Below are positions 734-62,432 of a stretch of DNA of 64,000 bases, in pieces. The stretch's first letter is position 1, and the number at the start of each line of letters is the position of its first letter. The notes under the pieces are model-generated. The model did not search any database. It was not told the DNA's origin and worked only from the letters and a program-made list of their open reading frames with translations. The stretch lies in assembly GCA_964016885.1 (NCBI GenBank), contig CAXHJY010001069.1, forward strand, positions 16,801-80,800, in the 5' to 3' direction. Made by a program: the position numbers and the translations under genes. Source of the DNA: Eledone cirrhosa. Taxonomy: Eukaryota.

Positions 734-804
734 TTCAGAATCCTATGGGGACCACCCCAAAGTCTAATACTGTTACATGGTTGTAATATAAATATACTCC
801 TCTA

Positions 805-857
805 CCTTTCACGGGACCCCAGACAATCTTTTGCGGAACCCACTTTGGGAGCCACTG
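805..857 (-). mobile_element. Terminus of a hAT (Charlie-like) non-autonomous DNA transposon abutting a SINE head fragment
   Basis: Reverse complement begins CAGTGGCTCCCAAAGTGGGTTCCGC, like Charlie TIRs. The next bases (ctctaaccactaagccatg) are the reverse complement of the SINE A-box region at ~34746. Confidence 0.45.
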
Positions 858-899
858 CTCTAACCACTAAGCCATGTGGTGCAGGATATTAAGAGTTAA

Positions 900-1590
900 A
901 TAACTCGCTGGAGGCTGGCTTACACATCAACATCTCCAAAACAAAATGTATGACAACTGATAAAACTAAGCCCATCTCCAAGTCACATTCTACAACCAGC
1001 AAATTGCTCAAGTTACGGAGTTTGTATATCTCGGTCACAAACTATCATCAAACAACAATGGAATGAGTGCTGCGCAATATCGAATCACTCTAGGTTTTGG
1101 CAGCTTTCAACAAGAACAAGGAAGTACTAACATCAAAACGAGTTTCCTATCATTTGAAGGCTAAGATCTTTGATACTTACATCCTACCAGTTGTGTTATA
1201 TGGTCTTGACTGTGTCAATTGGACACAAGATCACTTCAGAAGCTCTCTACATTCCAGAACCACATCATGAGACTTATGACTAGCAAGCGGCTCAGCGATC
1301 GTATCTGTATCAGTGAGCCGCTCAACATTACCAAACTTAGACCAATTACATCAATTGTCAAGTCAAGAGTACTCAAACTATACGGCCATATAAAAAGATC
1401 AACTCGTGGTGTGAGTAGGTTATTCCTGGAAGGAAGGTTGGCTGGTAAGAGAAGCAGAGGCCGGCAGCCAAAACTATGGCTTGATAATGTCAACTTATGG
1501 ACTGGACTTTTCTCTTTGAACTCTGCTGTTGGTGGTCGAACTTTGTGGAGAGAGATATCACATGTTAATGTGCAGTCTGCAACTGGCGGA
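900..1590 (+). mobile_element. Degenerate RTE-clade LINE, C-terminal RT/thumb fragment (frameshifted)
   Basis: Translates across frameshifts to GLHINISKTK..EFVYLG..LKAKIFDTYILPVVLYG..LYGHIKR..EGRLAGKRSRGRQPKLWLDNV, a typical RTE ORF C-terminus. Confidence 0.85.
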
Positions 1591-1884
1591 GTTTACCGTA
1601 AAAGTAGTAGTAACTGCAAGTTTAAGGCGGCAAACAAAAACAGCAAAAAACAAAAACAAAAACAAAAAAGACATGAGCAGGTAGTTGAGGTGGTTACTAC
1701 TAACACACATACACCAACACTACTACCATCACCACTCTCACCACCACTAACACACATACACCACCACCACCACCACTGCCACCACCACCACTACTACCAT
1801 CACCACTCTCACCACGACCATCACTCCTCACCAGCGGATGTAACTAATTAATTTGTTCAACTGGAGAGACTGTAAACAACTTGG

Positions 1885-2359: not shown

Positions 2360-2637
2360 GGTGTTGGATGCTTAAAGCGTCCGTATGCGGTAGGCCGTAT
2401 GAACACTCAATGCCCTCGTAGAGCAGAGTTAGGAAAATCTGGTTCGTAGAATCGAGACGTATCTGACGACCGTGTTGATTTCAGAGTCAGGTCTGATCAC
2501 TATATCGGTTAGATCACTATATCGATCATATATCAGATCACTATATCGATCGTGCCTCGAGCTGGTCGCCCGAGAAACATTTGTAATATGTCCAATAAAT
2601 TCATTTCGTCGCAACACTGATTCTCTTTTTTCTGTGA
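2358..2637 (+). mobile_element. (TA)n-flanked PLE pLTR-like element, family A copy 1
   Basis: Homologous to 62671-62818; contains a hammerhead motif followed by AATAAA (2594-2599); (TA)n on both sides. Confidence 0.7.
2456..2592 (+). ncRNA. Type I hammerhead ribozyme motif with extended stem II
   Basis: Stem I GACGTAT/ATATGTC; CTGACGA 2463-2469; GAAAC 2574-2578; stem III AC-attt-GT; GTA cleavage triplet 2583-2585. Confidence 0.75.
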
Positions 2638-2654
2638 TATATATATATATTGAT

Positions 2655-3170
2655 TAATGTTCAGAGCCATCCTCAGCATTCTCGTGTAGCACCCATCCAC
2701 CATCTGAGTGAGTTTCTTGGTCAGTCTCTAAGTCCCAGACCCGTACAACAACACAGACTCCACTACAGCAACGAAGAGACGGATCTTCAGGTCTTTATGA
2801 AGGTCCGACTTTCACACCGATCTCAAACTGTGGCACGCCGCCCAGGCTTTGCTCTTCCTCTCGACCGCATCATCTTCTGTATTCCCAATCTTCGCTCCCA
2901 GATACAGGAAGTCCTCAACCAATTCTAGCGGCTTCCCGCCTACATTAGTAATCTTCTCTGGCTTCTTAATATTCTCTACCAGATACTTCGTCTTAATCTC
3001 ATTTATTCTCTGCCCCACACTCATCGACACAGACTCCACCTCCTGAATCAACTCCTCTGCCTCCTTCTCTGTGTTTGTCACCAGAACTATGTCGTCGGCA
3101 AATTCAGCATCCGATATCTTTTTCGCCTTAACTCTCCTGCTCTGAGCCGGTGTTACAGTAAAGCCTCCCA
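2655..3170 (-). mobile_element. RTE-like LINE reverse transcriptase fragment (inverted 5' part)
   Basis: FADD catalytic motif, RINEIKTKY, VEDFLYLG, KAWAAC, then ESVLLYG..DGCYTRMLRMALNI with in-frame stops. Confidence 0.9.
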
Positions 3171-3420
3171 AACGTCAGCTCGAGAGTAACACAGAGAGAC
3201 TGAGGTTAACTGGACATGCTCACCGACATCCAGAGTTGACACTACACTCAGTGCTCCTGTGGGAGACCCTGCATGGACACACTGGAAGAGGAAGACCGAG
3301 GTTGACATATGTTGATGTCCTAAGGACAGACACTGGTCTCTTGGAGGCGCAGGACATGGCAACGATAATGAGGGACAGAGACCGCTGGAGAGAACTCGTC
3401 CATGGATCTCGGGAATTTTA
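3163..3420 (+). mobile_element. 3' end of the same RTE-like LINE (sense part)
   Basis: RLRLTGHAHRHPEL..VLLWE..GRGRPRLTYVDVL..DRDRWRELV, a typical RTE C-terminus. Confidence 0.85.
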
Positions 3421-3447: not shown

Positions 3448-3581
3448 TTTATCCCGGGTTCAATCAGGGGTAACCACAGCAAGTAAGCTACTCAATACAT
3501 AGCACAGTATCAATATTTAATATAGAAATGGCTTCTACAGGACTAGAACTGTTTAATTCGGAAGAAATCATCAGGAAACCC
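3448..3581 (-). mobile_element. PLE pLTR-like element family B with hammerhead motif (3530-3580; GAAA mutated to TAAA)
   Basis: Minus strand GGTTTC-CTGATGA-tttcttccgaat-tAAACAG-ttctagtc-CTGTA-GAAGCC; homologous to 48057-48245, 60335-60460 and 45878-45920. Confidence 0.7.
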
Positions 3582-3889
3582 ATCAGGCACATCTCCTCCT
3601 TCTCCCTCCCTCTCCCTTTCCATGTCCTTCACCCTCTCTCCCCTTCTGTAGCTCTTCTCCTTTCCCTCTACTTTTCTCCCTCTCTCTCTCTCTACTCTGC
3701 TCTCTATTTACCTCACACCACACCCCCTCCTGTTCTTTCTAGAGTTCTACCTCTTATCTTCCACTAGAGTTCTCCGATAGTTGCCTCACCCCCATCCACC
3801 CCCACCCCACATAGACACCGAGGTGCTCCTCCTCCCGCTCTGTTCCTCCTCTATCATATGTTCGGATTTGGTTTCACATTGAAAGATAG

Positions 3890-7171: not shown

Positions 7172-7180
<9 letters not shown>

Positions 7181-7592
7181 TAAAAAAATAATGAATAAAA
7201 CAATGAAACAGTTCCTTATATTAAACAAAAAAAGTTCATTATTTAACGATCGTTTCTAGGATATATATGTGTTAGAATTGGCATGCATATTCAACAGATC
7301 TATGTACAAAATTATACAAAATTATACAAACTATCAAAATTAAATATACATACCAAACACATATATATGGCATATATATATAACACATAAACGGCATATA
7401 TATGTGTTTGGTATGTATATTTAATTTTGATAGTTTGTATAATTTTGTATAATTTTGTACATAGATCTGATGAATATGCATGCCAATTCTAACACATATA
7501 TATCCTAGAAACGATCGTTAAATAATGAACTTTTTTTGTTTAATATAAGGAACTGTTTCATTGTTTTATTCATTATTTTTTTAATATTTTAT
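7172..7592. repeat. ~198-bp near-perfect inverted repeat (7172-7369 / 7395-7592) in a (TA)n-flanked PLE-like element extending to ~7726
   Basis: Arms are reverse complements; the right arm has CTGATGA 7467-7473 and GAAACGATCGTT 7508-7519. Confidence 0.9.
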
Positions 7593-7752
7593 CTTGACTC
7601 TGTATTCCGTTTATCTTTCACCGAAAGTGATTTTTCATTGCATCTCTTCTTTCCATGATATCCGGACTACATTGAGTTCTTCATACGGATTGGACACTAC
7701 CGTAAACTCTTGGTAGATTTATCTACATATATATATATATATATATATGTCA

Positions 7753-10700
7753 ATCTTGTTGTCATATATCTCACACCTATCTTGGTCTTATTACCAACTA
7801 TCTTGCTGTCATATATCTCACACCTCTCTTGGTCTTATTACCAACTATCTTGTTGTCATATATCACACCTATCTTGGTCTTATTACCAACTATCTTGTCA
7901 TATATCTCACACCTATCTTGGTCTTATTACCAACTATCTTGTTGTCATATATCTCACACCTCTCTTGGTCTTATTACCAACTATCTTGCTGTCATATATC
8001 TCACACCTATCTTGGTCTTATTACCAACTATCTTGTTGTCATATATCTCACACCTCTCTTGTTCTTATTACCAACTATCTTGTTGTCATATATCTCACAC
8101 CTCTCTTGGTCTTATTACCAACTATCTTGTTGTCATATATCCCACACCTATCTTGGTCTTATTACCAACTATCTTGTTGTCATATATCTCACACCTATCT
8201 TGGTCTTATTACCAACTATCTTGTTGTCATATATCTCACACCTATCTTGGTCTTATTACCAACTATCTTGTTGTCATATATCCCACACCTATCTTGGTCT
8301 TATTACCAACTATCTTGTTGTCATATATCCCACACCTATCTTGGTCTTATTACCAACTATCTTGTTGTCATATATCCCACACCTATCTTGGTCTTATTAC
8401 CAACTATCTTGTTGTCATATATCTCACACCTATCTTGGTCTTATTACCAACTATCTTGCTGTCATATATCTCACACCTATCTTGGTCTTATTACCAACTA
8501 CCTTGCTGTCATATATCTCACACCTATCTTGGTCTTATTACCAACTATCTTGTTGTCATATATCTCACACCTATCTTGGTCTTATTACCAACTATCTTGT
8601 TGTCATATATCTCACACCTATCTTGGTCTTATTACCAACTATCTTGCTGTCATATATCTCACACCTATCTTGGTCTTATTACCAACTATCTTGTGGTCAT
8701 ATATCCCACGCCTATCTTGGTCTTATTACCAACTATCTTGTTGTCATATATCTCACACCTATCTTGGTCTTATTACCAACTATCTTGTTGTCATATATCC
8801 CACACCTATCTTGGTCTTATTACCAACTATCTTGTTGTCATATATCTCACACCTATCTTGGTCTTATTACCAACTATCTTGTTGTCATATATCTCACACC
8901 TATCTTGGTCTAATTACCAACTATCTTGCTGTCATATATCTCACACCTATCTTGGTCTAATTACCAACTATCTTGTCATATATCTCACACCTCTCTTGGT
9001 CTTATTACCAACTATCTTGTCATATATCTCACACCTCTCTTGGTCTTATTACCAACTATCTTGCTGTCATATATCTCACACCTATCTTGGTCTAATTACC
9101 AACTATCTTGCTGTCATATATCTCACACCTATCTTGGTCTAATTACCAACTATCTTGCTGTCATATATCTCACACCTATCTTGGTCTTATTACCAACTAT
9201 CTTGCTGTCATATATCTCACACCTCTCTTGGTCTTATTACCAACTATCTTGTCATATATCTCACACCTCTCTTGGTCTTATTACCAACTATCTTGCAGTC
9301 ATATATCTCACACTTCTCTTGGTCTTATTACCAACTATCTTGCTGTCATATATCTCACACCTCTCTTGGTCTTATTACCAACTATCTTGCTGTCATATAT
9401 CTCACACCTCTCTTGGTCTTATTACCAACTATCTTGCTGTCATATATCTCACACCTCTCTTGGTCTTATTACCAACTATCTTGCTGTCATATATCTCACA
9501 CCTCTCTTGGTCTTATTACCAACTATCTTGTCATATATCTCACACCTATCTTGGTCTTATTACCAACTATCTTGCTGTCATATATCTCACACCTCTCTTG
9601 GTCTTATTACCAACTATCTTGTCATATATCTCACACCTATCTTGGTCTTATTACCAACTATCTTGTTGTCATATATCTCACACCTCTCTTGGTCTTATTA
9701 CCAACTATCTTGTTGTCATATATCTCACACCTCTCTTGGTCTTATTACCAACTATCTTGTCATATATCTCACACCTCTCTTGGTCTTATTACCAACTATC
9801 TTGTCATATATCTCACACCTATCTTGGTCTTATTACCAACTATCTTGTTGTCATATATCTCACACCTATCTTGGTCTTATTACCAACTAACTTGTTGTCA
9901 TATATCTCACCTCTCTTGGTCTTATTACCAACTATCTTGTTGTCATATATCTCACACCTTTCTTGGTCTTATTACCAACTATCTTGTTGTCATATATCTC
10001 ACACCTATCTTGGTCTTATTACCAACTATCTTGTTGTCATATATCTCACACCTATCTTGGTCTTATTACCAACTATCTTGCTGTCATATATCTCACACCT
10101 ATCTTGGTCTTATTACCAACTATCTTGCTGTCATATATCTCACACCTCTCTTAGTCTTATTACCAACTATCTTGTTGTCATATATCTCACACCTATCTTG
10201 GTCTTATTACCAACTATCTTGTTGTCATATATCCCACACCTATCTTGGTCTTATTACCAACTATCTTGTTGTCATATATCTCACACCTATCTTGGTCTTA
10301 TTACCAACTATCTTGTTGTCATATATCTCACACCTATCTTGGTCTAATTACCAACTATCTTGCTGTCATATATCTCACACCTATCTTGGTCTAATTACCA
10401 ACTATCTTGTCATATATCTCACACCTCTCTTGGTCTTATTACCAACTATCTTGTCATATATCTCACACCTCTCTTGGTCTTATTACCAACTATCTTGCTG
10501 TCATATATCTCACACCTATCTTGGTCTAATTACCAACTATCTTGCTGTCATATATCTCACACCTATCTTGGTCTAATTACCAACTATCTTGCTGTCATAT
10601 ATCTCACACCTATCTTGGTCTTATTACCAACTATCTTGCTGTCATATATCTCACACCTCTCTTGGTCTTATTACCAACTATCTTGTCATATATCTCACAC

Positions 10701-13700
10701 CTCTCTTGGTCTTATTACCAACTATCTTGCAGTCATATATCTCACACTTCTCTTGGTCTTATTACCAACTATCTTGCTGTCATATATCTCACACCTCTCT
10801 TGGTCTTATTACCAACTATCTTGCTGTCATATATCTCACACCTCTCTTGGTCTTATTACCAACTATCTTGCTGTCATATATCTCACACCTCTCTTGGTCT
10901 TATTACCAACTATCTTGCTGTCATATATCTCACACCTCTCTTGGTCTTATTACCAACTATCTTGTCATATATCTCACACCTATCTTGGTCTTATTACCAA
11001 CTATCTTGCTGTCATATATCTCACACCTCTCTTGGTCTTATTACCAACTATCTTGTCATATATCTCACACCTATCTTGGTCTTATTACCAACTATCTTGT
11101 TGTCATATATCTCACACCTCTCTTGGTCTTATTACCAACTATCTTGTTGTCATATATCTCACACCTCTCTTGGTCTTATTACCAACTATCTTGTCATATA
11201 TCTCACACCTCTCTTGGTCTTATTACCAACTATCTTGTCATATATCTCACACCTATCTTGGTCTTATTACCAACTATCTTGTTGTCATATATCTCACACC
11301 TATCTTGGTCTTATTACCAACTAACTTGTTGTCATATATCTCACACCTCTCTTGGTCTTATTACCAACTATCTTGTTGTCATATATCTCACACCTTTCTT
11401 GGTCTTATTACCAACTATCTTGTTGTCATATATCTCACACCTATCTTGGTCTTATTACCAACTATCTTGTTGTCATATATCTCACACCTATCTTGGTCTT
11501 ATTACCAACTATCTTGCTGTCATATATCTCACACCTATCTTGGTCTTATTACCAACTATCTTGCTGTCATATATCTCACACCTCTCTTAGTCTTATTACC
11601 AACTATCTTGTTGTCATATATCTCACACCTATCTTGGTCTTATTACCAACTATCTTGCTGTCATATATCTCACACCACTCTTGGTCTTATTACCAACTAT
11701 CTTGTTGTCATATATCTCACACCTATCTTGGTCTTATTACCAACTATCTTGCTGTCATATATCTCACACCTATCTTGGTCTTATTACCAACTATCTTGCT
11801 GTCATATATCTCACACCTCTCTTAGTCTTATTACCAAATATCTTGTTGTCATATATCTCACACCTATCTTGGTCTTATTACCAACTATCTTGCTGTCATA
11901 TATCTCACACCTCTCTTGGTCTTATTACCAACTATCTTGCTGTCATATATCTCACACCTCTCTTGGTCTTATTACCAACTATCTTGTCATATATCTCACA
12001 CCTATCTTCGTCTTATTACCAACTATCTTGTTGTCATATATCTCACACCTATCTTGGGCTTATTACCAACTATCTTGTTGTCATATATCTCACACCTATC
12101 TTGGTTTTATTACCAACTATCTTGCTGTCATATATCCCACGCCTATCTTGGTCTTATTACCAACTATCTTGTTGTCATATATCTCACACCTATCTTGGTC
12201 TTATTACCAACTATCTTGCTGTCATATATCCCACACCTATCTTGGTCTTATTACCAACTATCTTTTGGTCATATATCCCACGCCTATCTTGGTCTTATTA
12301 CCAACTATCTTGTTGTCATATATCTCACACCTATCTTGGTCTTATTACCAACTATCTTGTTGTCATATATCTCACACCTATCTTGGTCTAATTACCAACT
12401 ATCTTGCTGTCATATATCTCACACCTATCTTGGTCTAATTACCAACTATCTTGTCATATATCTCACACCTCTCTTGGTCTTATTACCAACTATCTTGTCA
12501 TATATCTCACACCTCTCTTGGTCTTATTACCAACTATCTTGCTGTCATATATCTCACACCTATCTTGGTCTAATTACCAACTATCTTGCTGTCATATATC
12601 TCACACCTATCTTGGTCTAATTACCAACTATCTTGCTGTCATATATCTCACACCTATCTTGGTCTTATTACCAACTATCTTGCTGTCATATATCTCACAC
12701 CTCTCTTGGTCTTATTACCAACTATCTTGTCATATATCTCACACCTCTCTTGGTCTTATTACCAACTATCTTGCAGTCATATATCTCACACTTCTCTTGG
12801 TCTTATTACCAACTATCTTGCTGTCATATATCTCACACCTATCTTGGTCTTATTACCAACTATCTTGCTGTCATATATCTCACACCTCTCTTGGTCTTAT
12901 TACCAACTATCTTGCTGTCATATATCTCACACCTATCTTGGTCTTATTACCAACTATCTTGCTGTCATATATCTCACACCTCTCTTGGTCTTATTACCAA
13001 CTATCTTGTCATATATCTCACACCTATCTTGGTCTTATTACCAACTATCTTGCTGTCATATATCTCACACCTCTCTTGGTCTTACTACCAACTATCTTGT
13101 CATATATCTCACACCTATCTTGGTCTTATTACCAACTATCTTGTTGTCATATATCTCACACCTATCTTGGGCTTATTACCAACTATCTTGTTGTCATATA
13201 TCTCACACCTATCTTGGTTTTATTACCAACTATCTTGCTGTCATATATCTCACACCTATCTTGGTCTTATTACCAACTATATTGTTGTCATATATCTCAC
13301 ACCTCTCTTGGTCTTATTACCAACTATCTTGTTGTCATATATCTCACACCTCTCTTGGTCTTATTACCAACTATCTTGTTGTCATATATCTCACACCTAT
13401 CTTGGTCTTATTACCAAATATCTTGTTGTCATATATCTCACACCTATCTTGGTCTTATTACCAACTATCTTGTTGTCATATATCTCACACCTATCTTGGT
13501 CTTATTACCAACTATCTTGTCATATATCTCACACCTCTCTTGGTCTTATTACCAACTATCTTGTTGTCATATATCTCAAACCTCTCTTGGTCTTATTACC
13601 AACTATCTTGTCATATATCTCACACCTCTCTTGGTCTTATTACCATCTATCTTGCTGTCATATATCTCACACCTCTCTTGGTCTTATTACCAACTATCTT

Positions 13701-16700
13701 GTTGTCATATATCTCACACCTCTCTTGGTCTTATTACCAACTATCTTGTCATATATCTCACACCTATCTTGGTCTTATTACCAACTATCTTGTTGCCATA
13801 TATCTCACACCTCTCTTGGTCTTATTACCAACTATCTTGTCATATATGTCACACCTCTCTTGGTCTTATTACCAACTATCTTGCTGTCATATATCTCACA
13901 CCTCTCTTGGTCTTATTACCAACTATCTTGTCATATATCTCACACCTCTCTTGGTCTTTTTACCAACTAACTTGCTGTCATATATCTCACACCTATCTTG
14001 GTCTTATTACCAACTATCTTGTCATATATCTCACACCTCTCTTGGTCTTATTACCAACTATCTTGTCATATATCTCACACCTCTCTTGTTCTTATTACCA
14101 ACTATCTTGTCATATATCTCACACCTCTCTTGGTCTTATTACCAACTATCTTGCTGTCATATATCTCACACCTATCTTGGTCTTATTACCAACTATCTTG
14201 CTGTCATATATCTCACACCTCTCTTGGTCTTATTACCAACTATCTTGCTGTCATATATCTCACACCTATCTTGGTCTTATTACCAACTATCTTGCTGTCA
14301 TATATCTCACACCTCTCTTGGTCTTATTACCAACTATCTTGTCATATATCTCACACATCTCTTGGTCTTATTACCAACTATCTTGTCACATATCTCACAC
14401 ATCTCTTGGTCTTATTACCAACTATCTTGTCATATATCTCACACCTCTCTTAGTCTTATTACCAACTATCTTGTTGTCATATATCTCACACCTATCTTGG
14501 TCTTATTACCAACTATCTTGCTGTCATATATCTCACACCTCTCTTGGTCTTATTACCAACTATCTTGTCATATATCTCACACCTATCTTGGTCTTATTAG
14601 CAACTATCTTGCTGTCATATATCTCACACCGCTCTTGGTCTTATTACCAACTATCTTGTCATACATCTCACACCTCTCTTGGTCTTATTACCAACTATCT
14701 TGCTGTCATATATCTCACACCTCTCTTGGTCTTATTACCAACTATCTTGCTGTCATATATCTCACACCTATCTTGGTCTTATTACCAACTATCTTGCTGT
14801 CATATATCTCACACCTCTCTTGGTCTTATTACCAACTATCTTGTCATATATCTCACACCTCTCTTGGTCTTATTACCAACTATCTTGTTGTCATATATCT
14901 CACACCTCTCTTGGTCTTATTACCAACTATCTTGTCATATATCTCACACCTCTCTTGGTCTTATTACCAACTATCTTGCTGTCATATATCTCACACCTAT
15001 CTTGGTCTTATTACCAACTATCTTGTTGTCATATATCTCACACCTCTCTTGGTCTTATTACCAACTATTTTGTCATATATCTCACACCTCTCTTGGTCTT
15101 ATTACCAACTATCTTGCTGTCATATATCTCACACCTCTCTTGGTCTTATTACCAACTATCTTGTCATATATCTCACACCTCTCTTGGTCTTATTACCAAC
15201 TATCTTGTTGTCATATATCTCACACCTCTCTTGGTCTTATTACCAACTATCTTGCTGTCATATATCTCACACCTATCTTGGTCTAATTACCAACTATCTT
15301 GTTGTCATATATCTCACACCTATCTTGGTCTTATTACCAACTATCTTGCTGTCATATATCTCCCACCTCTCTTGGTCTTATTACCAACTCTCTTGTCGTC
15401 ATATATCTCACACCTATCTTGGTCTTATTACCAACTATCTTGCTGTCATATATCTCTCACCTCTCTAGGTCTAATTACCAACTATCTTGCTGTCATATAT
15501 CTCACACCTATCTTGGTCTTATTACCAACTATCTTGCTGTCATATATCTCACACCTATCTTGGTCTTATTACCAACTATCTTGCTGTCATATATCTCACA
15601 CCTCTCTTGGTCTTATTACCAACTATCTTGTTGTCATATATCTCACACCTATCTTGGTCTTATTACCAACTATCTTGTTGTCATATATCTCACACCTATC
15701 TTGGTCTAATTACCAACTATCTTGTTGTCATATATCTCACACCTATCTTGGTCTTATTACCAACTATCTTGTTGTCATATATCTCACACCTATCTTGGTC
15801 TAATTACCAACTATCTTGTTGTCATATATCTCACACCTATCTTGGTCTTATTACCAACTATCTTGCTGTCATATATCACACACCTCTCTTGGTCTTATTA
15901 CCAACTATCTTGCTGTCATATATCTCACACCTCTCTTGGTCTTATTACCAACTATCTTGTTGTCATATATCTCACACCTATCTTGGTCTTATTACCAACT
16001 ATCTTGTTGTCATATATCTCACACCTATCTTGGTCTAATTACCAACTATCTTGTTGTCATATATCTCACACCTATCTTGGTCTTATTACCAACTATCTTG
16101 CTGTCATATATCTCACACCTCTCTTGGTCTTATTACCAACTATCTTGTTGTCATATATCTCACACCTATCTTGGTCTTTTTACCAACTATCTTGCTGTCA
16201 TATATCTCACACCTATCTTGGTCTTATTACCAACTATCTTGTTGTCATATATCTCACACCTATCTTGGTCTTATTACCAACTATCTTGTTGTCATATATC
16301 TCACACCTATCTTGGTCTTATTACCAACTATCTTGTTGTCATATATCTCACACCTATCTTGGTCTAATTACCAACTATCTTGTTGTCATATATCTCACAC
16401 CTATCTTGGTCTTATTACCAACTATCTTGTTGTTATATATCTCACACCTATCTTGGTCTTATTACCAACTATCTTGTCATATATCTCACACATCTCTTGG
16501 TCTTATTACCAACTATCTTGTCATATATCTCACACCTCTCTTGGTCTTATTACCAACTATCCTGTTGTCATATATCTCACACCTATCTTGGTCTTATTAC
16601 CAACTATCTTGCTGTCATATATCTCACACCTCTCTTGGTCTTATTACCAACTATCTTGTCATATATCTCACACCTCTCTTGGTCTAGTTACCAACTATCT

Positions 16701-19700
16701 TGCTGTCATATATCTCACACCTCTCTTGGTCTTATTACCAACTATCTTTTTGTCATATATCTCACACCTATCTTGGTCTTATTACCAACTATCTTGCTGT
16801 CATATATCTCACACCTCTCTTGGTCTTATTACCAACTATCTTGTCATATATCTCACACCTCTCTTGGTCTTATTACCAACTATCTTGTTGTCATATATCT
16901 CACACCTATCTTGGTCTTATTACCAACTATCTTGCTGTCATATATCTCACACCTCTCTTGGTCTTATTACCAACTATCTTGTCATATATCTCACACCTCT
17001 CTTGGTCTTATTACCAACTATCTTGTCATATATCTCACACCTCTCTTGGTCTTATTACCAACTATCTTGTTGTCATATATCTCACACCTCTCTTGGTCTT
17101 ATTACCAACTATCTTGTTGTCATATATTTCACACCTCTCTTGGTCTTATTACCAACTATCTTGTCATATATCTCACACCTCTCTTGGTCTTATTACCAAC
17201 TATCTTGTCATATATCTCACACCTCTCTTGGTCTTATTACCAACTATCTTGCTGTCATATATCTCACACCTATCTTGGTCTTATTACCAACTATCTTGTT
17301 GTCATATATCTCACACCTCTCTTGGTCTTATTACCAACTATTTTGTCATATATCTCACACCTCTCTTGGTCTTATTACCAACTATCTTGTTGTCATATAT
17401 CTCACACCTCTCTTGGTCTTATTACCAACTATTTTGTCATATATCTCACACCTCTCTTGGTCTTATTACCAACTATCTTGCTGTCATATATCTCACACCT
17501 CTCTTGGTCTTATTACCAACTATCTTGTCATATATCTCACACCTATCTTGGTCTTATTACCAACTATCTTGTTGTCATATATCTCACACCTCTCTTGGTC
17601 TTATTACCAACTTTCTTGTCATATATCTCACACCTCTCTTGGTTTTATTACCAACTATCTTGTCATATATCTCACACCTCTCTTGGTCTTATTACCAACT
17701 ATCTTGTCATATATCTCACACCTCTCTTGGTCTTATTACCAAATATCTTGTCATATATCTCACACCTCTCTTGGTCTTATTACCAACTATCTTGCTGTCA
17801 TATATCTCACACCTATCTTGGTCTTATTACCAACTATCTTGTCATATATCTCACACATCTCTTGGTCTTATTACCAACTATCTTCTCACATATCTCACAC
17901 ATCTCTTGGTCTTATTACCAACTATCTTGTCATATATCTCACACCTCTCTTGGTCTTATTACCAACTATCTTGTTGTCATATATCTCACACCTATCTTGG
18001 TCTTATTACCAACTATCTTGCTGTCATATATCTCACACCTCTCTTGGTCTTATTACCAACTATCTTGTCATATATCTCACACCTATCTTGGTCTTATTAC
18101 CAACTATCTTGCTGTCATATATCTCACACCGCTCTTGGTCTTATTACCAACTATCTTGTCATACTTCTCACACCTCTCTTGGTCTTATTACCAACTATCT
18201 TGCTGTCATATATCTCACACCTCTCTTGGTCTTATTACCAACTATCTTGCTGTCATATATCTCACACCTATCTTGGTCTTATTACCAACTATCTTGCTGT
18301 CATATATCTCACACCTCTCTTGGTCTTATTACCAACTATCTTGTCATATATCTCACACCTCTCTTGGTCTTATTACCAACTATCTTGTTGTCATATATCT
18401 CACACCTCTCTTGGTCTTATTACCAACTATCTTGTCATATATCTCACACCTCTCTTGGTCTTATTACCAACTATCTTGCTGTCATATATCTCACACCTAT
18501 CTTGGTCTTATTACCAACTATCTTGTTGTCATATATCTCACACCTCTCTTGGTCTTATTACCAACTATTTTGTCATATATCTCACACCTCTCTTGGTCTT
18601 ATTACCAACTATCTTGCTGTCATATATCTCACACCTCTCTTGGTCTTATTACCAACTATCTTGTCATATATCTCACACCTCTCTTGGTCTTATTACCAAC
18701 TATCTTGTTGTCATATATCTCACACCTCTCTTGGTCTTATTACCAACTATCTTGTCATATATCTCACACCTCTCTTGGTCTTATAACCAACTATCTTGCT
18801 GTCATATATCTCACACCTATCTTGGTCTTATTACCAACTATCTTGTTGTCATATATCTCACACCTCTCTTGGTCTTATTACCAACTATCTTGTCATATAT
18901 CTCACACCTCTCTTGGTCTTATTACCAACTATCTTGTCATATATCTCACACCTCTCTTGGTCTTATTACCAACTATCTTGTCATATATCTCACACCTCTC
19001 TTGGTCTTATTACCAAATATCTTGTCATATATCTCACACCTCTCTTGGTCTTATTACCAACTATCTTGCTGTCATATATCTCACACCTCTCTTGGTCTTA
19101 TTACCAACTATCTTGTCATATATCTCACACCTCTCTTGGTCTTTTTACCAACTATCTTGTCATATATCTCACACCTCTCTTGGTCTTATTACCAACTATC
19201 TTGCTGTCATATATCTCACACCTATCTTGGTCTTATTACCAACTATCTTGCTGTCATATATCTCACACCTCTTTTGGTCTTATTACCAACTATCTTGCTG
19301 TCATATATCTCACACCTATCTTGGTCTTATTACCAACTATCTTGCTGTCATATATATCACACCTCTCTTGGTCTTATTACCAACTATCTTGCTGTCATAT
19401 ATCTCACACCTATCTTGGTCTAATTACCAACTATCTTGTTGTCATATATCTCACACCTATCTTGGTCTTATTACCAACTATCTTGCTGTCATATATCTCC
19501 CACCTCTCTTGGTCTTATTACCAACTCTCTTGTTGTCATATATCTCACACCTATCTTGGTCTTATTACCAACTATCTTGCTGTCATATATCTCTCACCTC
19601 TCTAGGTCTAATTACCAACTATCTTGCTGTCATGTATCTCACACCTATCTTGGTCTTATTACCAACTATCTTGCTGTCATATATCTCACACCTATCTTGG

Positions 19701-22700
19701 TCTTATTACCAACTATCTTGCTGTCATATATCTCACACCTATCTTGGTCTTATTACCAACTATCTTGCTGTCATATATCTCACACCTCTCTTGGTCTTAT
19801 TACCAACTATCTTGTTGTCATATATCTCACACCTATCTTGGTCTTATTACCAACTATCTTGTTGTCATATATCTCACACCTATCTTGGTCTAATTACCAA
19901 CTATCTTGTTGTCATATATCTCACACCTATCTTGGTCTTATTACCAACTATCTTGTTGTCATATATCTCACACCTATCTTGGTCTTATTACCAACTATCT
20001 TGTCATATATCTCACACATCTCTTGGTCTTATTACCAACTATCTTGTCATATATCTCACACCTCTCTTGGTCTTATTACCAACTATCTTGTTGTCATATA
20101 TCTCACACCTATCTTGGTCTTATTACCAACTATCTTGCTGTCATATATCTCACACCTCTCTTGGTCTTATTACCAACTATCTTGTCATATATCTCACACC
20201 TCTTTTGGTCTAGTTACCAACTATCTTGCTGTCATATATCTCACACCTCTCTTGGTCTTATTACCAACTATCTTGTTGTCATATATCTCACACCTATCTT
20301 GGTCTTATTACCAACTATCTTGCTGTCATATATCTCACACCTCTCTTGGTCTTATTACCAACTATCTTGTCATATATCTCACACCTCTCTTGGTCTTATT
20401 ACCAACTATCTTGTTGTCATATATCTCACACCTATCTTGGTCTTATTACCAACTATCTTGCTGTCATATATCTCACACCTCTCTTGGTCTTATTACCAAC
20501 TATCTTGTCATATATCTCACACCTCTCTTGGTCTTATTACCAACTATCTTGTCATATATCTCACACCTCTCTTGGTCTTATTACCAACTATCTTGTTGTC
20601 ATATATCTCACACCTATCTTGGTCTTATTACCAACTATCTTGCTGTCATATATCTCACACCTCTCTTGGTCTTATTACCAACTATTTTGTCATATATCTC
20701 ACACCTCTCTTGATCTTATTACCAACTATCTTGCTGTCATATATCTCACACCTCTCTTGGTCTTATTACCAACTATCTTGCTGTCATATATCTCACACCT
20801 ATCTTGGTCTTATTACCAACTATCTTGCTGTCATATATCTCACACCTCTCTTGGTCTTATTACCAACTATCTTGTCACATATCTCACACCTCTCTTGGTC
20901 TTATTACCAACTATCTTGTTGTCATATATCTCACACCTCTCTTGGTCTTATTACCAACTATCTTGTTGTCATATATTTCACACCTCTCTTGGTCTTATTA
21001 CCAAATATCTTGTCATATATCTCACACCTCTCTTGGTCTTATTACCAACTATCTTGTCATATATCTCACACCTCTCTTGGTCTTATTACCAACTATCTTG
21101 CTGTCACATATCTCACACCTATCTTGGTCTTATTACCAACTATCTTGTTGTCATATATCTCACACCTCTCTTGGTCTTATTACCAACTATCTTGCTGTCA
21201 TATATCTCACACCTCTCTTGGTCTTATTACCAACTATCTTGCTGTCATATATCTCACACCTCTCTTGGTCTTATTACCAACTATCTTGTCATATATCTCA
21301 CACCTATCTTAGTCTTATTACCAACTATCTTGTTGTCATATATCTCACACCTCTCTTGGTCTTATTACCAACTTTCTTGTCATATATCTCACACCTCTCT
21401 TGGTCTTATTACCAACTATCTTGTCATATATCTCACACCTCTCTTGGTCTTATTACCAACTATCTTGTCATATATCTCACACCTCTCTTGGTCTTATTAC
21501 CAAATATCTTGTCATATATCTCACACCTCTCTTGGTCTTATTACCAACTATCTTGCTGTCATATATCTCACACCTATCTTGGTCTTATTACCAACTATCT
21601 TGTCATATATCTCACACCTCTCTTGGTCTTATTACCAACTATCTTGTCATATATCTCACACCTCTCTTGATCTTTTTACCAACTATCTTGTCATATATCT
21701 CACACCTCTCTTGGTCTTATTACCAACTATCTTGCTGTCATATATCTCACACCTATCTTGGTCTTATTACCAACTATCTTGCTGTCATATATCTCGCCCC
21801 TCTCTTGGTCTTATTTCCAACTATCTTGTCATATATCTCACACCTCTCTTGATCTTTTTACCAACTATCTTGTCATATATCTCACACCTATCTTGGTCTT
21901 ATTACCAACTATCTTGCTGTCATATATCTCACACCTATCTTGGTCTTATTACCAACTATCTTGCTGTCATATATCTCACACCTCTCTTGGTCTTATTACC
22001 AACTATCTTGCTGTCATATATCTCACACCTATCTTGGTCTTATTACCAACTATCTTGTTGTCATATATCTCACACCTATCTTTGTCTTATTACCAACTAT
22101 CTTGCTGTCATATATCTCCCACCTCTCTTGGTCTTATTACCAACTATCTTGTTGTCATATATCTCACACCTATCTTGGTCTTATTACCAACTATCTTGCT
22201 GTCATATATCTCTCACCTCTCTGGGTCTAATTACCAACTATCTTGCTGTCATATATCTCACACCTATCTTGGTCTTATTACCAACTATCTTGCTGTCATA
22301 TATCTCACACCTATCTTGGTCTTATTACCAACTATCTTGCTGTCATATATCTCACACCTATCTTGGTCTTATTACCAACTATCTTGTTGTCATATATCTC
22401 ACACCTCTCTTGGTCTTATTACCAACTATCTTGTTGTCATATATCTCACACCTATCTTGGTCTTATTACCAACTATCTTGTTGTCATATATCTCACACCT
22501 ATCTTGGTCTTATTACCAACTATCTTGCTGTCATATATCTCACACCTATCTTGGTCTTATTACCAACTATCTTGTTGTCATATATCTCACACCTCTCTTG
22601 GTCTTATTACCAACTATCTTGTTGTCATATATCTCACACCTCTCTTGGTCTTATTACCAACTATCTTGTCATATATCTCACACCTCTCTTGGTCTTATTA

Positions 22701-25700
22701 CCAACTATCTTGTCATATATCTCACACCTCTCTTGATCTTATTACCAACTATTTTCTCATATGTCTCACACCTATCTTGGTCTTATTACCAACTATCTTG
22801 TTGTCATATATCTCACACCTATCTTGGTCTTATTACCAACTATCTTGTTGTCATATATCTCACACCTCTCTTGGTCTTATTACTAACTATCTTGTTGTCA
22901 TATATCTCACACCTATCTTGGTCATATATCTCACACCTATCTTGGTCTTATTACCAACTATCTTGTCATATATCTCACACCTCTCTTGGTCTTATTACCA
23001 ACTATCTTGTCATATATCTCACACCTCTCTTGATCTTATTACCAACTATCTTGTCATATATCTCACACCTCTCTTGATCTTATTACCAACTATCTTGTCA
23101 TATATCTCACACCTATCTTGGTCTTATTACCAACTATCTTGTTGTCATATATCTCACACCTATCTTGGTCTTATTACCAACTATCTTGCTGTCATATATT
23201 TCACACCTCCCTTGGTCTTATTACCAACTATCTTGTTGTCATATATCTCACACCTCTCTTGGTCTTATTACTAACTATCTTGTTGTCACATATCTCACAC
23301 CTATCTTGGTCATATATCTCACACCTATCTTGGTCTTATTACCAACTATCTTGTCATATATCTCACACCTCTCTTGGTCTTATTACCAACTATCTTGTTG
23401 TCATATATCTCACACCTATCTTGGTCTTATTACCAACTATCTTGTCATATATCTCACACCTCTCTTGGTCTTATTACCAACTATCTTGTCATATATCTCA
23501 CACCTCTCTTGGTCTTATTACCAACTATCTTGTTGTCATATATCTCACACCTATCTTGGTCTTATTACCAACTATCTTGTCATATATCTCACACCTCTCT
23601 TGGTCTTATTACCAACTATCTTGTCATATATCTCACACCTCTCTTGGTCTTATTACCAACTATCTTGTTGTCATATATCTCACACCTATCTTGGTCTTAT
23701 TACCAACTATCTTGTCATATATCTCACACCTCTCTTGGTCTTATTACCAACTATCTTGTCATATATCTCACAACTCTCTTGGTCTTATTACCAACTATCT
23801 TGTTGTCATATATCTCACGCATATCTTGGTCTTATTACCAACTATCTTGCTGTCATATATCTCACACCTCTCTTGGTCTTATTACCAACTATCTTGTTGT
23901 CATATATCTCACACCTCTCTTGGTCTTATTACCAACTATCTTGCTGTCATATATCTCACACCTCTCTTGGTCTTATTACCAACTATCTTGCTGTCATATA
24001 TCTCAAACCTATCTTGGTCTTATTACCAACTATCTTGCTGTCATATATCTCACACCTCTCTTGGTCTTATTACCAACTATCTTGTCATATATCTCACACC
24101 TCTCTTGGTCTTATTACCAACTATCTTGTTGTCATATATCTCACACCTATCTTGGTCTTATTACCAACTATCTTGCTGTCATATATCTCACACCTCTCTT
24201 GGTCTTATTACCAACTATCTTGTCATATATCTCACACATCTCTTGGTCTTATTACCAACTATCTTGTCATATATCTCACACCTCTCTTGGTCTTATTACC
24301 AACTATCTTGTTGTCATATATCTCACACCTATCTTGGTCTTATTACCAACTATCTTGCTGTCATATATCTCACACCTCTCTTGGTCTTATTACCAACTAT
24401 CTTGTCATATATCTCACACCTCTCTTGGTCTTATTACCAACTATCTTGTTGTCATATATCTCACACCTCTCTTGGTCTTATTACCAACTATCTTGTTGTC
24501 ATATATCTCACACCTCTCTTGGTCTTATTACCAACTATCTTGCTGTCATATATCTCACACCTCTCTTGGTCTTATTACCAACTATCTTGTTGTCATATAT
24601 CTCACACCTCTCTTGGTCTTATTACCAACTATCTTGCTGTCATATATCTCACACCTCTCTTGGTCTTATTACCAACTATCTTGTTGTCATATATCTCACA
24701 CCTCTCTTGGTCTTATTACCAACTATCTTGTTGTCATATATCTCACACCTCTCTTGGTTTTATTACCAACTATCTTGTCATATATCTCACACCTCTCTTG
24801 ATCTTATTACCAACTATCTTGTCATATATCTCACACATATCTTGGTCTTATTACCAACTATCTTGTTGTCATATATCTCACACCTCTCTTGGTCTTATTA
24901 CCAACTATCTTGTTGTCATATATCTCACACCTCTCTTGGTCTTATTACCAACTATCTTGTCATATATCTCACACCTCTCTTGATCTTATTACCAACTATC
25001 TTGTCATATATCTCACACCTATCTTGGTCTTATTACCAACTATCTTGTTGTCATATATCTCACACCTATCTTGGTCTTATTACCAACTATCTTGTTGTCA
25101 TATATCTCACACCTCTCTTGGTCTTATTACTAACTATCTTGTTGTCATATATCTCACACCTATCTTGGTCATATATCTCACACCTATCTTGGTCTTATTA
25201 CCAACTATCTTATCATATAACTCACACCTATCTTGGTCTTATTACCAACTATCTTGTTGTCATATATCTCACACCTATCTTGGTCTTATTACCAACTATC
25301 TTGCTGTCATATATCTCACACCTCCCTTGGTTTTATTACCAACTATCTTGTTGTCATATATCTCACACCTCTCTTGGTCTTATTACTAACTATCTTGTTG
25401 TCATATATCTCACACCTATCTTGGTCTTATTACCAACTATCTTGTCATATATCTCACACCTCTCTTGGTCTTATTACCAACTATCTTGTTGTCATATATC
25501 TCACACCTCTTGGTCTTATTACCAACTATCTTGTTGTCATATATCTCACACCTATCTTGGTCTTATTACCAACTATCTTGCTGTCATATATCTCACACCT
25601 CTCTTGGTCTTATTACCAACTATCTTGCTGTCATATATCTCACACCTCTCTTGGTCTTATTACTAACTATCTTGCTGTCATATATCTCACACCTATCTTG

Positions 25701-28477
25701 GTCTTATTACCAAATATCTTGTTGTCATATATCTCACACCTATCCTGGTCTTATTACCAACTATCTTGTCATATATCTCACACCTCTCTTGGTCTTATTA
25801 CCAACTATCTTGTCATATATCTCACACCTCTCTTGGTCTTATTACCAACTATCTTGCTGTCATATATCTCACACCTCTCTTGGTCTTATTACCAACTATC
25901 TTGCTGTCATATATCTCACACCTCTCTTGGTCTTATTACCAACTATCTTGCTGTCATATATCTCACACCTATCTTGATCTTATTACCAACTATCTTGCTG
26001 TCATATATCTCACACCTCTCTTGGTCTTATTACCAACTATCTTGCTGTCATATATCTCACACCTCTCTTGGTCTTATTACCAACTATCTTGCTGTCATAT
26101 ATCTCACACCTCTCTTGGTCTTATTACCAACTATCTTGCTGTCATATATCTCACACCTATCTTGGTCTTATTACCAACTATCTTGCTGTCATATATCTCA
26201 CACCTATCTTGGTCTCATTACCAACTATCTTGCTGTCATATATCTCACACCTATCTTGGTCTTATTACCAACTATCTTGCTGTCATATATCTCACAGCTA
26301 TCTTGGTCTTATTACCAACTATCTTGCTGTCATATATCTCACACCTATCTTGGTCTCATTACCAACTATCTTGCTGTCATATATCTCACACCTATCTTGG
26401 TCTTATTACCAACTATCTTGCTGTCATATATCTCACACCTATCTTGGTCTTATTACCAACTATCTTGCTGTCATATATCTCACACCTCTCTTGGTCTTAT
26501 TACCAACTATCTTGCTGTCATATATCTCACAGCTATCTTGGTCTTATTACCAACTATCTTGCTGTCATATATCTCACACCTCTCTTGGTCTTATTACCAA
26601 CTATCTTGTTGTCATATGTCTCACACCTATCTTGGTCTTATTACCAACTATCTTGTCATATATCTCACACCTATCTTGGTCTTATTACCAACTATCTTGC
26701 TATCATATATCTCACACCTATCTTGGTCTTATTACCAACTATCTTGCTGTCATATATCTCACACCTCTCTTGGTCTTATTACCAACTATCTTGTTGTCAT
26801 ATATCTCACACCTATCTTGGTCTTAATACCAACAATCTTGCTGTCATATATCTCACACCTCTCTTGGTCTTTTTACCAACTATCTTGTTGTCATATATCT
26901 CACACCTATCTTGGTCTTATTACCAACTATCTTGTTGTCATATATCTCACACCTATCTTGGTCTTATTACCAACTATCTTGTTGTCATATATCTCACACC
27001 TATCTTGGTCTTATTACCAACAATCTTGCTGTCATATATCTCACACCTCTCTTGGTCTTTTTACCAACTATCTTGTTGTCATATATCTCACACCTATCTT
27101 GGTCTTATTACCAACTATCTTGTTGTCATATATCTCACACCTATCTTGGTCTTATTACCAACTATCTTGTTGTCATATATCTCACACCTATCTTGGTCTT
27201 ATTACCAACTACCTTGCTGTCATATATCTCACACCTATCTTGGTCTTATTACCAACTATCTTGTCATATATCTCACACCTATCTTGGTCTTATTACCAAC
27301 TATCTTGTTGTCATATATCTCACACCTATCTTGGTCTTATTACCAACTATCTTGTTGTCATATATCTCACACCTATCTTGGTCTTATTACCAACTACCTT
27401 GCTGTCATATATCTCACACCTATCTTGGTCTTATTACCAACTATCTTGTTGTCATATATCTCACACCTATCTTGGTCTTATTACCAACTATCTTGTTGTC
27501 ATATATCTCACACCTATCTTGGTCTTATTACCAACTATCTTGTTGTCATATATCTCACACCTCTCTTGGTCTTATTACCAACTATCTTGTTGTCATATAT
27601 CTCACACCTATCTTGGTCTTATTACCAACTATCTTGTTGTCATATATCTCACACCTATCTTGGTCTTATTACCAACTATCTTGTTGTCATATATCTCACA
27701 CCTATCTTGGTCTTATTACCAACTATCTTGTTGTCATATATCTCACACCTCTCTTGGTCTTATTACCAACTATCTTGTCATATGTCTCACACCTCCCTTG
27801 GTCTTATTACCAACTATCTTGTTGTCATATATCTCACACCTATCTTGGTCTTATTACCAACTATCTTGTCATATATCTCACACCTATCTTGGTCTTATTA
27901 CCAACTACCTTGCTGTCATATATCTCACACCTCTCTTGGTCTTATTACCAACTATCTTGTCATATATCTCACACCTCCCTTGGTCTTATTACCAACTATC
28001 TTGTTGTCATATATCTCACACCTCTCTTGGTCTTATTACCAACTATCTTGTCATATATCTCACACCTATCTTGGTCTTATTACCAACTATCTTGTTGTCA
28101 TATATCTCACACCTATCTTGGTCTTATTACCAACTATCTTGCTGTCATATATCTCACACCTCTCTCGGTCTTATTACCAATTATCTTGTCATATATCTCA
28201 CACCTCCCTTGGTCTTATTACCAACTATCTTGTTGTCATATATCTCACACCTCTCTTGGTCTTATTACCAACTATCTTGTCATATATCTCACACCTCCCT
28301 TGGTCTTATTACCAACTATCTTGTTGTCATATATCTCACACCTCTCTTGGTCTTATTACCAACTATCTTGTCATATATCTCACACCTCTCTTGGTCTTAT
28401 TACCAACTATCTTGTCATATATCTCACACCTATCTTGGTCTTATTACCAACTATCTTGTCATATATCTCACACCTCT
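7753..28477. repeat. Satellite DNA, 47-bp and 44-bp monomers (ATCTTG[T/C]TGTCATATATCTCACACCT[A/C]TCTTGGTCTTATTACCAACT), roughly 450 copies
   Basis: Direct reading; the 44-mer lacks one triplet; kb-scale higher-order blocks are visible. Confidence 0.99.
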
Positions 28478-28481
28478 TTAG

Positions 28482-28548
28482 GGGAAAAAGGGGTGGGGTG
28501 TGGCTATATTCCACATTTGAATGGGACTTGTTACCAGATTTGTGGCAG
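28482..28548 (+). CDS. Candidate micro-exon (phase 1 to 2), (G)EKGVGCGYIPHLNGTCYQICG
   Basis: ctctttag acceptor and CAG|gtgccc donor; in frame with 6454-6500; the alternative frame GKRGGVWLYSTFEWDLLPDLWQ is also open. Confidence 0.45.
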
Positions 28549-29038
28549 GTGCCCTAAATTCAACCTCAAGCTTATTGAAAGGGATGATTCGAAATCAAAC
28601 ATCACAGACTGAAAATTATACTATCCTATACTGTACTATACTATACTATACTACACTATACTACACTGTACTATACTACACTATACTATACTAATCTGTT
28701 TCCTTCATTTCTCAAAGATATATCACTAAGCCACTTAACACATTGAAAAAAAAGCAAACAAACAAACAGATAAACAAATAAAGAAAGCCCCCTACCTCCA
28801 CTAAAAGTCGGAAGATGGAGGTATAGGTTTTCATGTAAGATATGACTGCTTCTAATAAATAGTAATGGACAAAACAGAGTAAAGAGGAAAGTTTTGGTTT
28901 ATAGTTTTGTAAGCAGAAGATTACATGATCTTTTGACATGTGTACATATGTATGTGATGTATGAATGTCTGTGGTATATATATATATATATATATATCTA
29001 TATATATATACACTCATATATATATTAATTCATATTTG

Positions 29039-60520: not shown

Positions 60521-61158
60521 GTGTATATATATATATATTTAGAGTTATTTAAAGTTATGAATTAAAAAGGCATAACTTGCTTGTAGCTGCTTTGTTATTT
60601 CCGAGTGTGGAATGAACGGTTTCGACCTAAATTAACCGAAACCATGGTGAATTCCTGAGGTTGACTCTGTTCTGTAACGTCAGCCATATTTTTCTGCTCT
60701 TTACTTTCTCTATCTTTCCTCCTCCTCTTCTCTCTCTCTCTCTCTCTCTGTTACTCTTTTTATTTATTTTTATTTCTCCTCTCTCTACCGCTCTTTCTAT
60801 TTTCTTCTCTTTCTATCCTCCACTCTCTCTTTATCTCTTTCCTCCCCTCTCTCTATCTTTCTTTCTTTTCCTCTCTATTTATCTAGATATATCTATGTTT
60901 CTCGTTATTCCAGCCCCTCTCTCCATCATTATATCGTCCTTTCTCTCCTCTGGTCCTCTCCCCCTCCCCTTCTCTCCCCTTCTCGTGGCCACCCTCGACC
61001 CACGTCTCACCACTCCCCCCTCTCTCACCACCCCCTCTCTTCCCCTTCTCTCACCCCCCTCTCTACTCTTATGCCAGATCCACTTTAGTTCCAACTCAGA
61101 TGCTCCGAGTTGAGATATCAATGTCTGGCTGGATGGTTTTTCCGCTTTTGGCACGTCA

Positions 61159-61204
<46 letters not shown>

Positions 61205-61490
61205 GAGGAGGTGTGTGTGACCTAGTGGTAAGGGTATTAGACTTACGATCATAATGTCATGGGTTCGATTCTTGGGTTGTGTGTTGTGTTCTTGAGCAGA
61301 ACTCTTCATCTAACGTTGCTCCAGTATACTCAGCTGAAAATAAGTACCAGCAATAGCTGGGGATTTAACCCTGGTATGGACTGGCGTCCTGTCCAAGGGG
61401 AAGTCTTGTTCTTTCAGTCGCTTCACGCCAAGGAAACCAGGATAAGCACTGGCCAAATGAGCCTTCTGGCTTAAGATAGACTTTTAGACT
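61205..61490 (+). mobile_element. tRNA-derived SINE inserted in (CTA)n
   Basis: A and B boxes; central domain shared with 34738-34990 but a different 3' part. Confidence 0.85.
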
Positions 61491-62295: not shown

Positions 62296-62302
62296 AAAAG
62301 TG

Positions 62303-62338: not shown

Positions 62339-62376
62339 TAAAAAGAGTGGGAAGAGAACGGAACGGAAAAAAATTG

Positions 62377-62432
<56 letters not shown>

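What the first reader, a model, noticed from the sequence alone, without database searches (positions are those of the whole stretch)
7753..28548. 20-kb satellite appears to derive from the exon-like sequence it abuts
Seen: the array ends at ctctttAG and is followed by TGTGGC-tatattccacatttgaatgggacttgttaccagatt-TGTGGC, a direct hexamer 42 bp apart (28499 and 28541). This segment aligns ungapped with the monomer tatatc(t/c)cacacctatcttggtcttattaccaa at 22-23 of 33 positions. The same frame reads YIPHLNGTCYQ versus YI(P/S)HLSWSYYQ, and about half of the differences are synonymous. A rare monomer at ~8692 (tgtggtcatatatcccac) is closer still. Inference: slippage between the two Cys-Gly TGTGGC codon pairs, or duplication of a paralogous exon, seeded an intronic satellite. 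That satellite now supplies the exon's polypyrimidine tract.
Basis: partly seen in the sequence, partly recalled or inferred. Interest (0 to 1): 0.85.

Follow-up and report, generated by a model that had tools for sequence, protein, structure and literature searches.

The report
Single-locus minisatellite, no exon support
This is a 20.7-kb array of about 446 near-identical 44- and 47-base units found at only one place in the genome; the sequence next to it resembles the unit only weakly and is likely an old diverged copy rather than an exon, so the feature is likely an ordinary, if large, minisatellite.

Summary
The array is real: 7753-28477, about 446 units of 47 or 44 bp, 0.9% internal divergence, confined to this contig (447 of 447 genome matches). 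The flank at 28505-28537 matches the unit at 22 of 33 positions. That beats shuffles (p about 0.002-0.004), but real genomic windows reach the same score in 19 of 978 cases, so kinship is likely, not proven. The exon reading is not supported. The peptide has no credible relative, the donor is weak, and the acceptor look follows from a 69%-pyrimidine array. The hexamer is absent from the array and is spaced 42 bp, not 44/47, and the 8692 unit is no closer overall. Contig overlap places the array about 70 kb upstream of the start codon of a nitric oxide synthase gene, and no coding exon of it or of the chloride-channel gene across the gap lies here. One low-depth contig in run X1 carries the flank without the array. 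A mild synonymous excess (5 of 11, p 0.01-0.04) is the only point for coding. No RNA run holds the stretch. Verdict: ordinary single-locus minisatellite, likely grown locally, with a decayed edge unit.

The parts
7753..28477 (+). Head-to-tail minisatellite array, about 446 units; 47-bp and 44-bp units interspersed, with block duplications of 1.4-4 kb
   Evidence: single locus:
28478..28504 (+). 27-base purine-rich spacer unlike the unit; holds the AG (28480-81) read as acceptor and the first TGTGGC
   Evidence: sequence
28505..28548 (+). Unit-like flank, 22 of 33 identical to the unit, starting 43 bases after the last unit's matching motif; likely an old diverged unit
28549..28611 (+). Possible second, more decayed unit (matching motif 50 bases after the first, another reading frame); single-copy in the assembly
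   Evidence: gapped alignment extends to 28567; self-similarity 361 of 5000 shuffles, 7 of 5000 with run X1's two letters
7172..7730 (.). Young dispersed element with a 206-bp palindromic head, inserted in (TA)n and abutting the array's left end; not part of the array
   Evidence: (40 of 40 scored matches 100% identical, 223 candidates)

Best explanation
The array is a single-locus minisatellite of about 446 units that likely grew in place from a local 45-50-bp duplication, and the unit-like flank is likely an old, non-coding, diverged unit left outside the homogenised array. Shown: size, unit classes, 0.9% divergence, one locus, exact block duplications, position upstream of the NOS start codon by contig overlap. 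Inferred: repeated slippage and unequal exchange amplified and homogenised the units while the edge copy drifted to about 33% difference; the purine-rich spacer marks a later rearrangement or replacement at the junction; the array has no function of its own.
For: One locus only: 336 of 336, 341 of 341 and 447 of 447 genome matches lie on this contig, controls 0. Exact internal duplications of 1191 bases at offset 1434 and 589 at offset 3500, and rare variants recurring in blocks. Flank likeness exceeds shuffles, 7 of 11 differences are transitions (expected share 0.33, P 0.036), the motif spacing is 43 then 50 bases, and the gapped alignment crosses a unit boundary and the proposed donor. 0 of 20 flanks of ten neighbouring minisatellites pass the same test, while this flank scores 0 of 200 shuffles. 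Eleven other minisatellites (period 29-123, 5 or more copies, 90% or more match) lie in 180 kb of C24 here. Divergent units at array ends and birth at one locus are the standard model (PMC5615363, passages).
Against: The likeness is weak: 19 of 978 masked genomic windows score as high; with BLASTN-like scoring it is not significant (330 of 2000); an apparently unrelated 51-bp repeat on the same contig scores as well against the unit (6 and 10 of 150 shuffles versus 4 of 150 for the flank). There is no divergence gradient towards the edge (0.77% in the last tenth, 0.68-1.32% overall) and 27 unlike bases intervene. One contig of run X1 (depth 2, 3 differences in 136 bases) has the flank behind 99 non-array letters, so the adjacency may be secondary. 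The 5 of 11 synonymous differences (P 0.012 fixed frame, 0.038 best of six) are not explained except by chance and after-the-fact choice of frame.
Confidence: 0.55

Rival explanations
1. The likeness is chance. The array arose from a seed that is now fully absorbed, and a deletion or rearrangement put it next to unrelated unique DNA of similar composition.
For: 19 of 978 real windows reach the score, and two flanks were open to inspection; scoring-dependent significance; an unrelated 51-mer scores alike; abrupt edge with a 27-base spacer; the X1 contig joins the flank to other sequence exactly at 28476.
Against: Shuffle p 0.002-0.004; transition excess and near-period spacing; 0 of 20 control flanks behave so. 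The X1 contig is single, depth 2, and its loose end is not in the assembly (0 matches), so it cannot be placed.
Confidence: 0.33
2. One reading: 28482-28548 is a real exon (or a paralogous exon was copied); slippage between the two hexamers seeded an intronic satellite that now supplies the polypyrimidine tract.
For: AG at 28480-81 with 12 of 14 pyrimidines upstream; a GT at 28549; open frame; 5 of 11 differences synonymous, P 0.012-0.038. A non-coding 5' exon of the NOS gene, or a gene hidden in the scaffold gap, is not excluded.
Against: No Pfam family, no candidate among proteins of 77-2000 residues, best PDB E 0.74, Atlas top score 0.80, own genome only self plus E=2. The two hits among 1.84 billion representatives are sums of 2-14.5-bit matches over 7 and 4 repeats. 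Donor CAG|GTGCCC scores -0.4 bits, reached by 14% of 2691 GT sites (recalled matrix). 6 of 15 AGs inside the array have an equal tract. Hexamer spacing 42 versus period 44/47, 0 copies in the array. NOS coding starts about 70 kb downstream and the CLC gene stops left of the gap. The flank exists without the array in X1.
Confidence: 0.08
3. The unit came in with a mobile element and amplified inside or beside it.
For: A young, high-copy element abuts the left end; transposon origin of minisatellites is common (PMC6947457, passages).
Against: None of 6 other copies of the element examined is followed by the unit; no unit copy elsewhere at up to 3 mismatches in 25 bases; right flank unique; left flank not unit-like (192 of 200 shuffles).
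Confidence: 0.04

Closest known systems
Single-locus minisatellite (VNTR) with interspersed variant repeats
   Same: Head-to-tail units of 44/47 bp at one locus, variant units mixed along the array, block duplications.
   Different: Larger than the usual definition (up to about 100 units in PMC6947457, passage); length polymorphism not shown here.
Haber and Louis (1998) model of minisatellite birth between 5-10 bp direct repeats (seen as described in PMC6947457; original not read)
   Different: Repeat spacing 42 bp versus period 44/47; the hexamer is absent from all units; such hexamer pairs occur in 44 of 442 control windows.
CapA satellite of New World monkeys, from a NOS1AP intron sequence (seen as described in PMC7210261; original not read)
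   Same: Tandem array proposed to derive from single-copy sequence by duplication and unequal crossing-over.
   Different: CapA is about 1.5 kb, multi-locus, about 5% of the genome, with clear homology; here a 47-bp unit at one locus with borderline homology.
Divergent units at satellite array ends (PMC5615363, passage)
   Same: Edge copy far more diverged than the homogenised interior.
   Different: Here the change is abrupt, with no gradient and a 27-base spacer.

Membership tests
single-locus minisatellite | head-to-tail units of about 10-100 bp | tested here: met
   period 47/44
single-locus minisatellite | confined to one locus | tested here: met
   447 of 447 matches on C1096 at up to 3 mismatches
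single-locus minisatellite | array of at most about 100 units (PMC6947457) | tested here: not met
   about 446 units; size is intermediate to satellite DNA
single-locus minisatellite | copy-number variation between haplotypes | tested here: inconclusive
   run X1 holds the same unit classes in similar shares (0.23/0.39/0.37 versus 0.27/0.36/0.37); contigs give no allele lengths
classical satellite DNA family | many loci or very long heterochromatic arrays | tested here: not met
   one 20.7-kb array in the assembly; collapsed copies cannot be excluded
Haber-Louis slippage origin | spacing of the flanking short repeat equals the period and each unit keeps one copy | tested here: not met
   42 versus 44/47; 0 TGTGGC in the array; drift since birth could blur this
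protein-coding exon | homologous peptide in relatives | tested here: not met
   a 22-codon exon is near the detection limit
protein-coding exon | consensus splice donor and acceptor | tested here: inconclusive
   AG and GT present; donor weak (recalled matrix); acceptor tract not specific
protein-coding exon | lies between coding exons of one gene | tested here: not met
   CLC stop left of the gap, NOS Met1 at C24:8395876, no NOS match on the contig; gap content unknown
protein-coding exon | spliced RNA junctions | not testable with these tools
   no RNA run holds the stretch
protein-coding exon | synonymous excess | tested here: inconclusive
   5 of 11; P 0.012 fixed frame, 0.038 best of six
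transposon-embedded tandem repeat | other element copies carry the unit | tested here: not met
   0 of 6 copies examined; no unit elsewhere

The most novel reading that the evidence does not exclude
The flank is a lineage-specific or non-coding 5' exon of the downstream nitric oxide synthase transcript (or of a gene in the scaffold gap); a copy of it seeded a 20-kb array that is present on some haplotypes only, so that the array rewires this exon's splice acceptor and NOS expression between alleles.
Probability: 0.06. Interest if true: 0.55.

Novelty: new member of a known kind. Interest (0 to 1): 0.13.

Why it matters
As read here it matters little: one more locus-specific minisatellite in a region that holds eleven others in 180 kb, larger than its neighbours and probably the reason a contig was left out of the chromosome. 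It is useful as a marker and for closing the gap upstream of the NOS gene. It would matter if RNA showed the flank to be spliced, because an exon-born array that feeds back on that exon's splicing would be a rare, testable case of satellite birth with a phenotype.

Tried and rejected
RNA evidence: 24 runs listed, none with half the words; the five on record as RNA are metatranscriptomes at share 0.04; X3, X7 and X14 laid nothing, which is no proof of absence. Saposin-like and Cys-rich protein hits: rejected as repeat-summed noise. p53 hits in PDB: E 0.74 or worse. NOS N-terminal exon: rejected, residues 1-410 of the long isoform are one block at C24:8395876-8397135 and nothing matches the contig. 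A zinc-finger gene left of the gap whose 5' exons might lie here: rejected, the finger is a stop-flanked fragment in 3 copies in 180 kb, likely a LINE end (recalled). Minus-strand frames of the flank: no Pfam family. A wider family of 46-51-bp repeats related to the unit: not significant (6-105 of 150 shuffles). Loose end of the X1 contig: 0 matches in G000 at 2 mismatches, none on the contig. Rfam: one tRNA-like hit, unrelated. Earlier findings: none returned.

Full report
Observation. Tandem Repeats Finder gives a period-47 array in two rows, 7753-25174 and 25160-28475, 94% matches. Of 442 anchored intervals, 310 are 47 bp, 122 are 44 bp and 10 are other lengths; 432 units differ from six reference classes at 0.9% of sites, with no rise towards the right edge (0.77% in the last tenth; range 0.68-1.32%). 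A core count gives 446 units; the pure pattern stops at 28477 and a 27-base purine-rich spacer follows; exact internal duplications reach 1191 bases at offset 1434 and 589 at offset 3500. TGTGGC stands at 28499 and 28541.

Is it locus-specific? Yes, in this assembly. An exact 27-mer has 336 matches in G000 and 336 in the window; a pattern fitting both unit and flank has 341 and 341; a 25-mer with up to 3 mismatches has 447 and 447, controls 0. The flank 28476-28620 matches only itself, and 28694-28974 only itself apart from 32-43-base pieces, nearly all on one simple repeat. Run X1 holds the three unit classes at depths 364, 614 and 584, shares 0.23/0.39/0.37 against 0.27/0.36/0.37 in the window, so the array is not an assembly artefact; X1 may or may not be independent of the assembly.

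How strong is the flank likeness? Ungapped 22 of 33. Dinucleotide shuffles of the flank reach the score 5, 13 and 9 times in 3000 for three flank lengths; 12 of 1718 overlapping windows elsewhere in the window do, and 19 of 978 repeat-masked windows from the contig and seven other loci. Gapped alignment extends to 28567, across a unit boundary; flank shuffles reach it 0, 6 and 330 times in 2000 under three scoring schemes, unit shuffles 24, 12 and 286 times; masked real windows 19, 21 and 291 of 978, unmasked ones 43, 35 and 399 of 1206. For kinship: 7 of 11 differences are transitions (P 0.036), the matching motif recurs 43 and then 50 bases on, and 0 of 20 flanks of ten neighbouring minisatellites pass the same test while this flank is reached by 0 of 200 shuffles. 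Against: a 51-bp repeat at L032:8841 scores as well against the unit (6 and 10 of 150 shuffles; flank 4 of 150). I put real kinship at about two in three. The unit at 8692 is 22 of 33, no closer than the common unit; the flank-like letters are rare alleles (10 and 3 of 437 units), more likely derived than ancestral (inference).

Is the flank an exon? The array's plus strand is 69% pyrimidine with only 15 AGs; 6 of these have 12 or more pyrimidines in the 14 bases before them, as the edge AG has. The donor CAG|GTGCCC scores -0.4 bits with a recalled human-like matrix; 14% of 2691 unmasked GT sites score as high. The 43-residue frame P0001 has no Pfam family, no candidate among proteins of 77-2000 residues, best PDB E 0.74, Atlas top score 0.80, and in G000 only itself and one E=2 match. 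Two hits among 1.84 billion representatives (E 1e-4, 5e-4) are sums over 7 and 4 repeats of 2-14.5 bits each. A 22-codon exon is near the limit of such searches, so this is not proof. The one point for coding is 5 synonymous of 11 differences: P 0.012 for a fixed frame, 0.038 for the best of six, in 20000 simulations; the frame was chosen after the fact. The hexamer pair is 42 bases apart, not 44 or 47, is absent from the array, and such pairs occur in 44 of 442 control windows.

Genomic context. Contig C1096 is 80,800 bases. Pfam on the 146 longest of 262 unmasked frames of 38 or more residues, plus three flank frames, gave two hits, RVT_1 and DUF6451. Window 55684-64000 is colinear at 97-100% with C24:8353182-8361652, just right of a 200-N gap at C24:8351164, so the contig extends into that gap; its left end overlaps nothing on C24, so the order to the left rests on the scaffold. 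Left of the gap a CLC chloride-channel gene (PF00654) ends with a stop shortly after C24:8330469. To the right lies a nitric oxide synthase gene (94% to the O. bimaculoides protein over 47 residues) whose long isoform starts at C24:8395876; nothing in it matches the contig. The array end projects about 70 kb upstream of that start. Pfam on the 63 longest of 124 frames between the two genes gave one zinc-finger hit, a stop-flanked fragment in 3 copies. The array is therefore intergenic or in a 5' non-coding intron, not between coding exons of either gene; a gene hidden in the gap is not excluded. Eleven other minisatellites lie in these 180 kb. The NOS match points to an octopod genome.

The X1 contig. 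One 280-base contig at depth 2 covers 28476-28611 with 3 differences and continues upstream with 99 letters that are not the array. The 30 letters shown are not in G000 at 2 mismatches. It may be an array-free haplotype, a paralogue missing from the assembly, or a chimera. If real, the AG and flank exist without the array, which undercuts 'the satellite supplies the tract' and also suggests the junction is a rearrangement point. With X1's two letters the second decayed unit matches the first better (7 versus 361 of 5000 shuffles), in another reading frame, which fits a DNA-level duplication rather than a peptide repeat (inference).

Left edge. 7172-7592 is a 206-bp, 98% palindrome, head of a young element: 40 of 40 scored matches to 7590-7730 are identical, of 223 candidates. 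Six copies examined have palindromic heads of varying length, end in (TA)n and carry no unit. This resembles the inverted 5'-truncated insertions of Penelope-like elements in microsatellites (PMC8557442, passages), though that paper says the Naiad clade is inactive in cephalopods; membership was not tested.

Mechanism. Shown: one locus, variant units, block duplications, abrupt edges. Inferred: a local duplication of a 45-50-bp seed, then slippage and unequal exchange amplified and homogenised the interior while an edge copy drifted; later events put a spacer on the right and an element on the left. Confidence 0.55; chance likeness with secondary adjacency 0.33; exon-seeded 0.08; element-borne 0.04.

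Comparison with what is known. Birth at one locus by slippage and divergent units at array ends are the standard model (PMC5615363, passages). Slippage between 5-10-bp repeats is the Haber-Louis model (PMC6947457, passages; original not read). A satellite from single-copy intron sequence is known as CapA (PMC7210261, passage; original not read). Searches (listings only, apart from the passages named) showed no report of an exon-seeded array serving as that exon's tract, but they were narrow and cover only part of the literature. No supplements were read. The finding is a new instance of a known kind; interest 0.13.

Noticed in passing
window 55684-64000 = G000:C24:8353182-8361652; gap at C24:8351164: Unplaced contig C1096 overlaps chromosome-scale C24 at 97-100% just right of a scaffold gap and extends about 70 kb into it, upstream of the NOS gene.
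   Followed up: yes
window 7172-7730; L047-L052: Young high-copy element with a palindromic head of variable length, inserted in (TA)n; Penelope-like arrangement. Other short palindromic elements occur at 52448-52608, 54721-54904, 59372-59564.
   Followed up: partly
window 59053-59154 (+): 102-base segment with AG before and GTAAGT after, stops in all frames, ATG just before the donor; candidate non-coding 5' exon about 39 kb upstream of the NOS start codon.
   Followed up: partly
window 28476, run X1 record 6: A depth-2 contig joins the flank to 99 non-array letters not found in the assembly: possible array-free haplotype, paralogue or chimera.
   Followed up: partly
window about 62320-62360 (-) and 3560-3590 (-): Short CTGATGA...GAAAC-type motifs that look like minimal hammerhead ribozymes (recalled motif); Rfam gave no hit at gathering score.
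   Followed up: no
C24:8258285-8378209; L032:8841-9192; window 43344-43639: Dense set of other minisatellites, periods 29-123 bp, up to 42 copies.
   Followed up: partly
window 735-1645 (+) and 2552-3240 (-): Broken LINE reverse-transcriptase fragments (RVT_1 at 2815-3174).
   Followed up: partly
C24:8265471-8292235 (+), 8305470-8330600 (+), 8395876 onward (+): Compact gene row: LIM-domain gene (zyxin/LPP-like, recalled), CLC chloride channel (CLC-6-like, recalled), PDZ-bearing nitric oxide synthase.
   Followed up: partly
window 51997-52067 (+): tRNA-like Rfam hit (40.9 bits), probably a SINE head.
   Followed up: no
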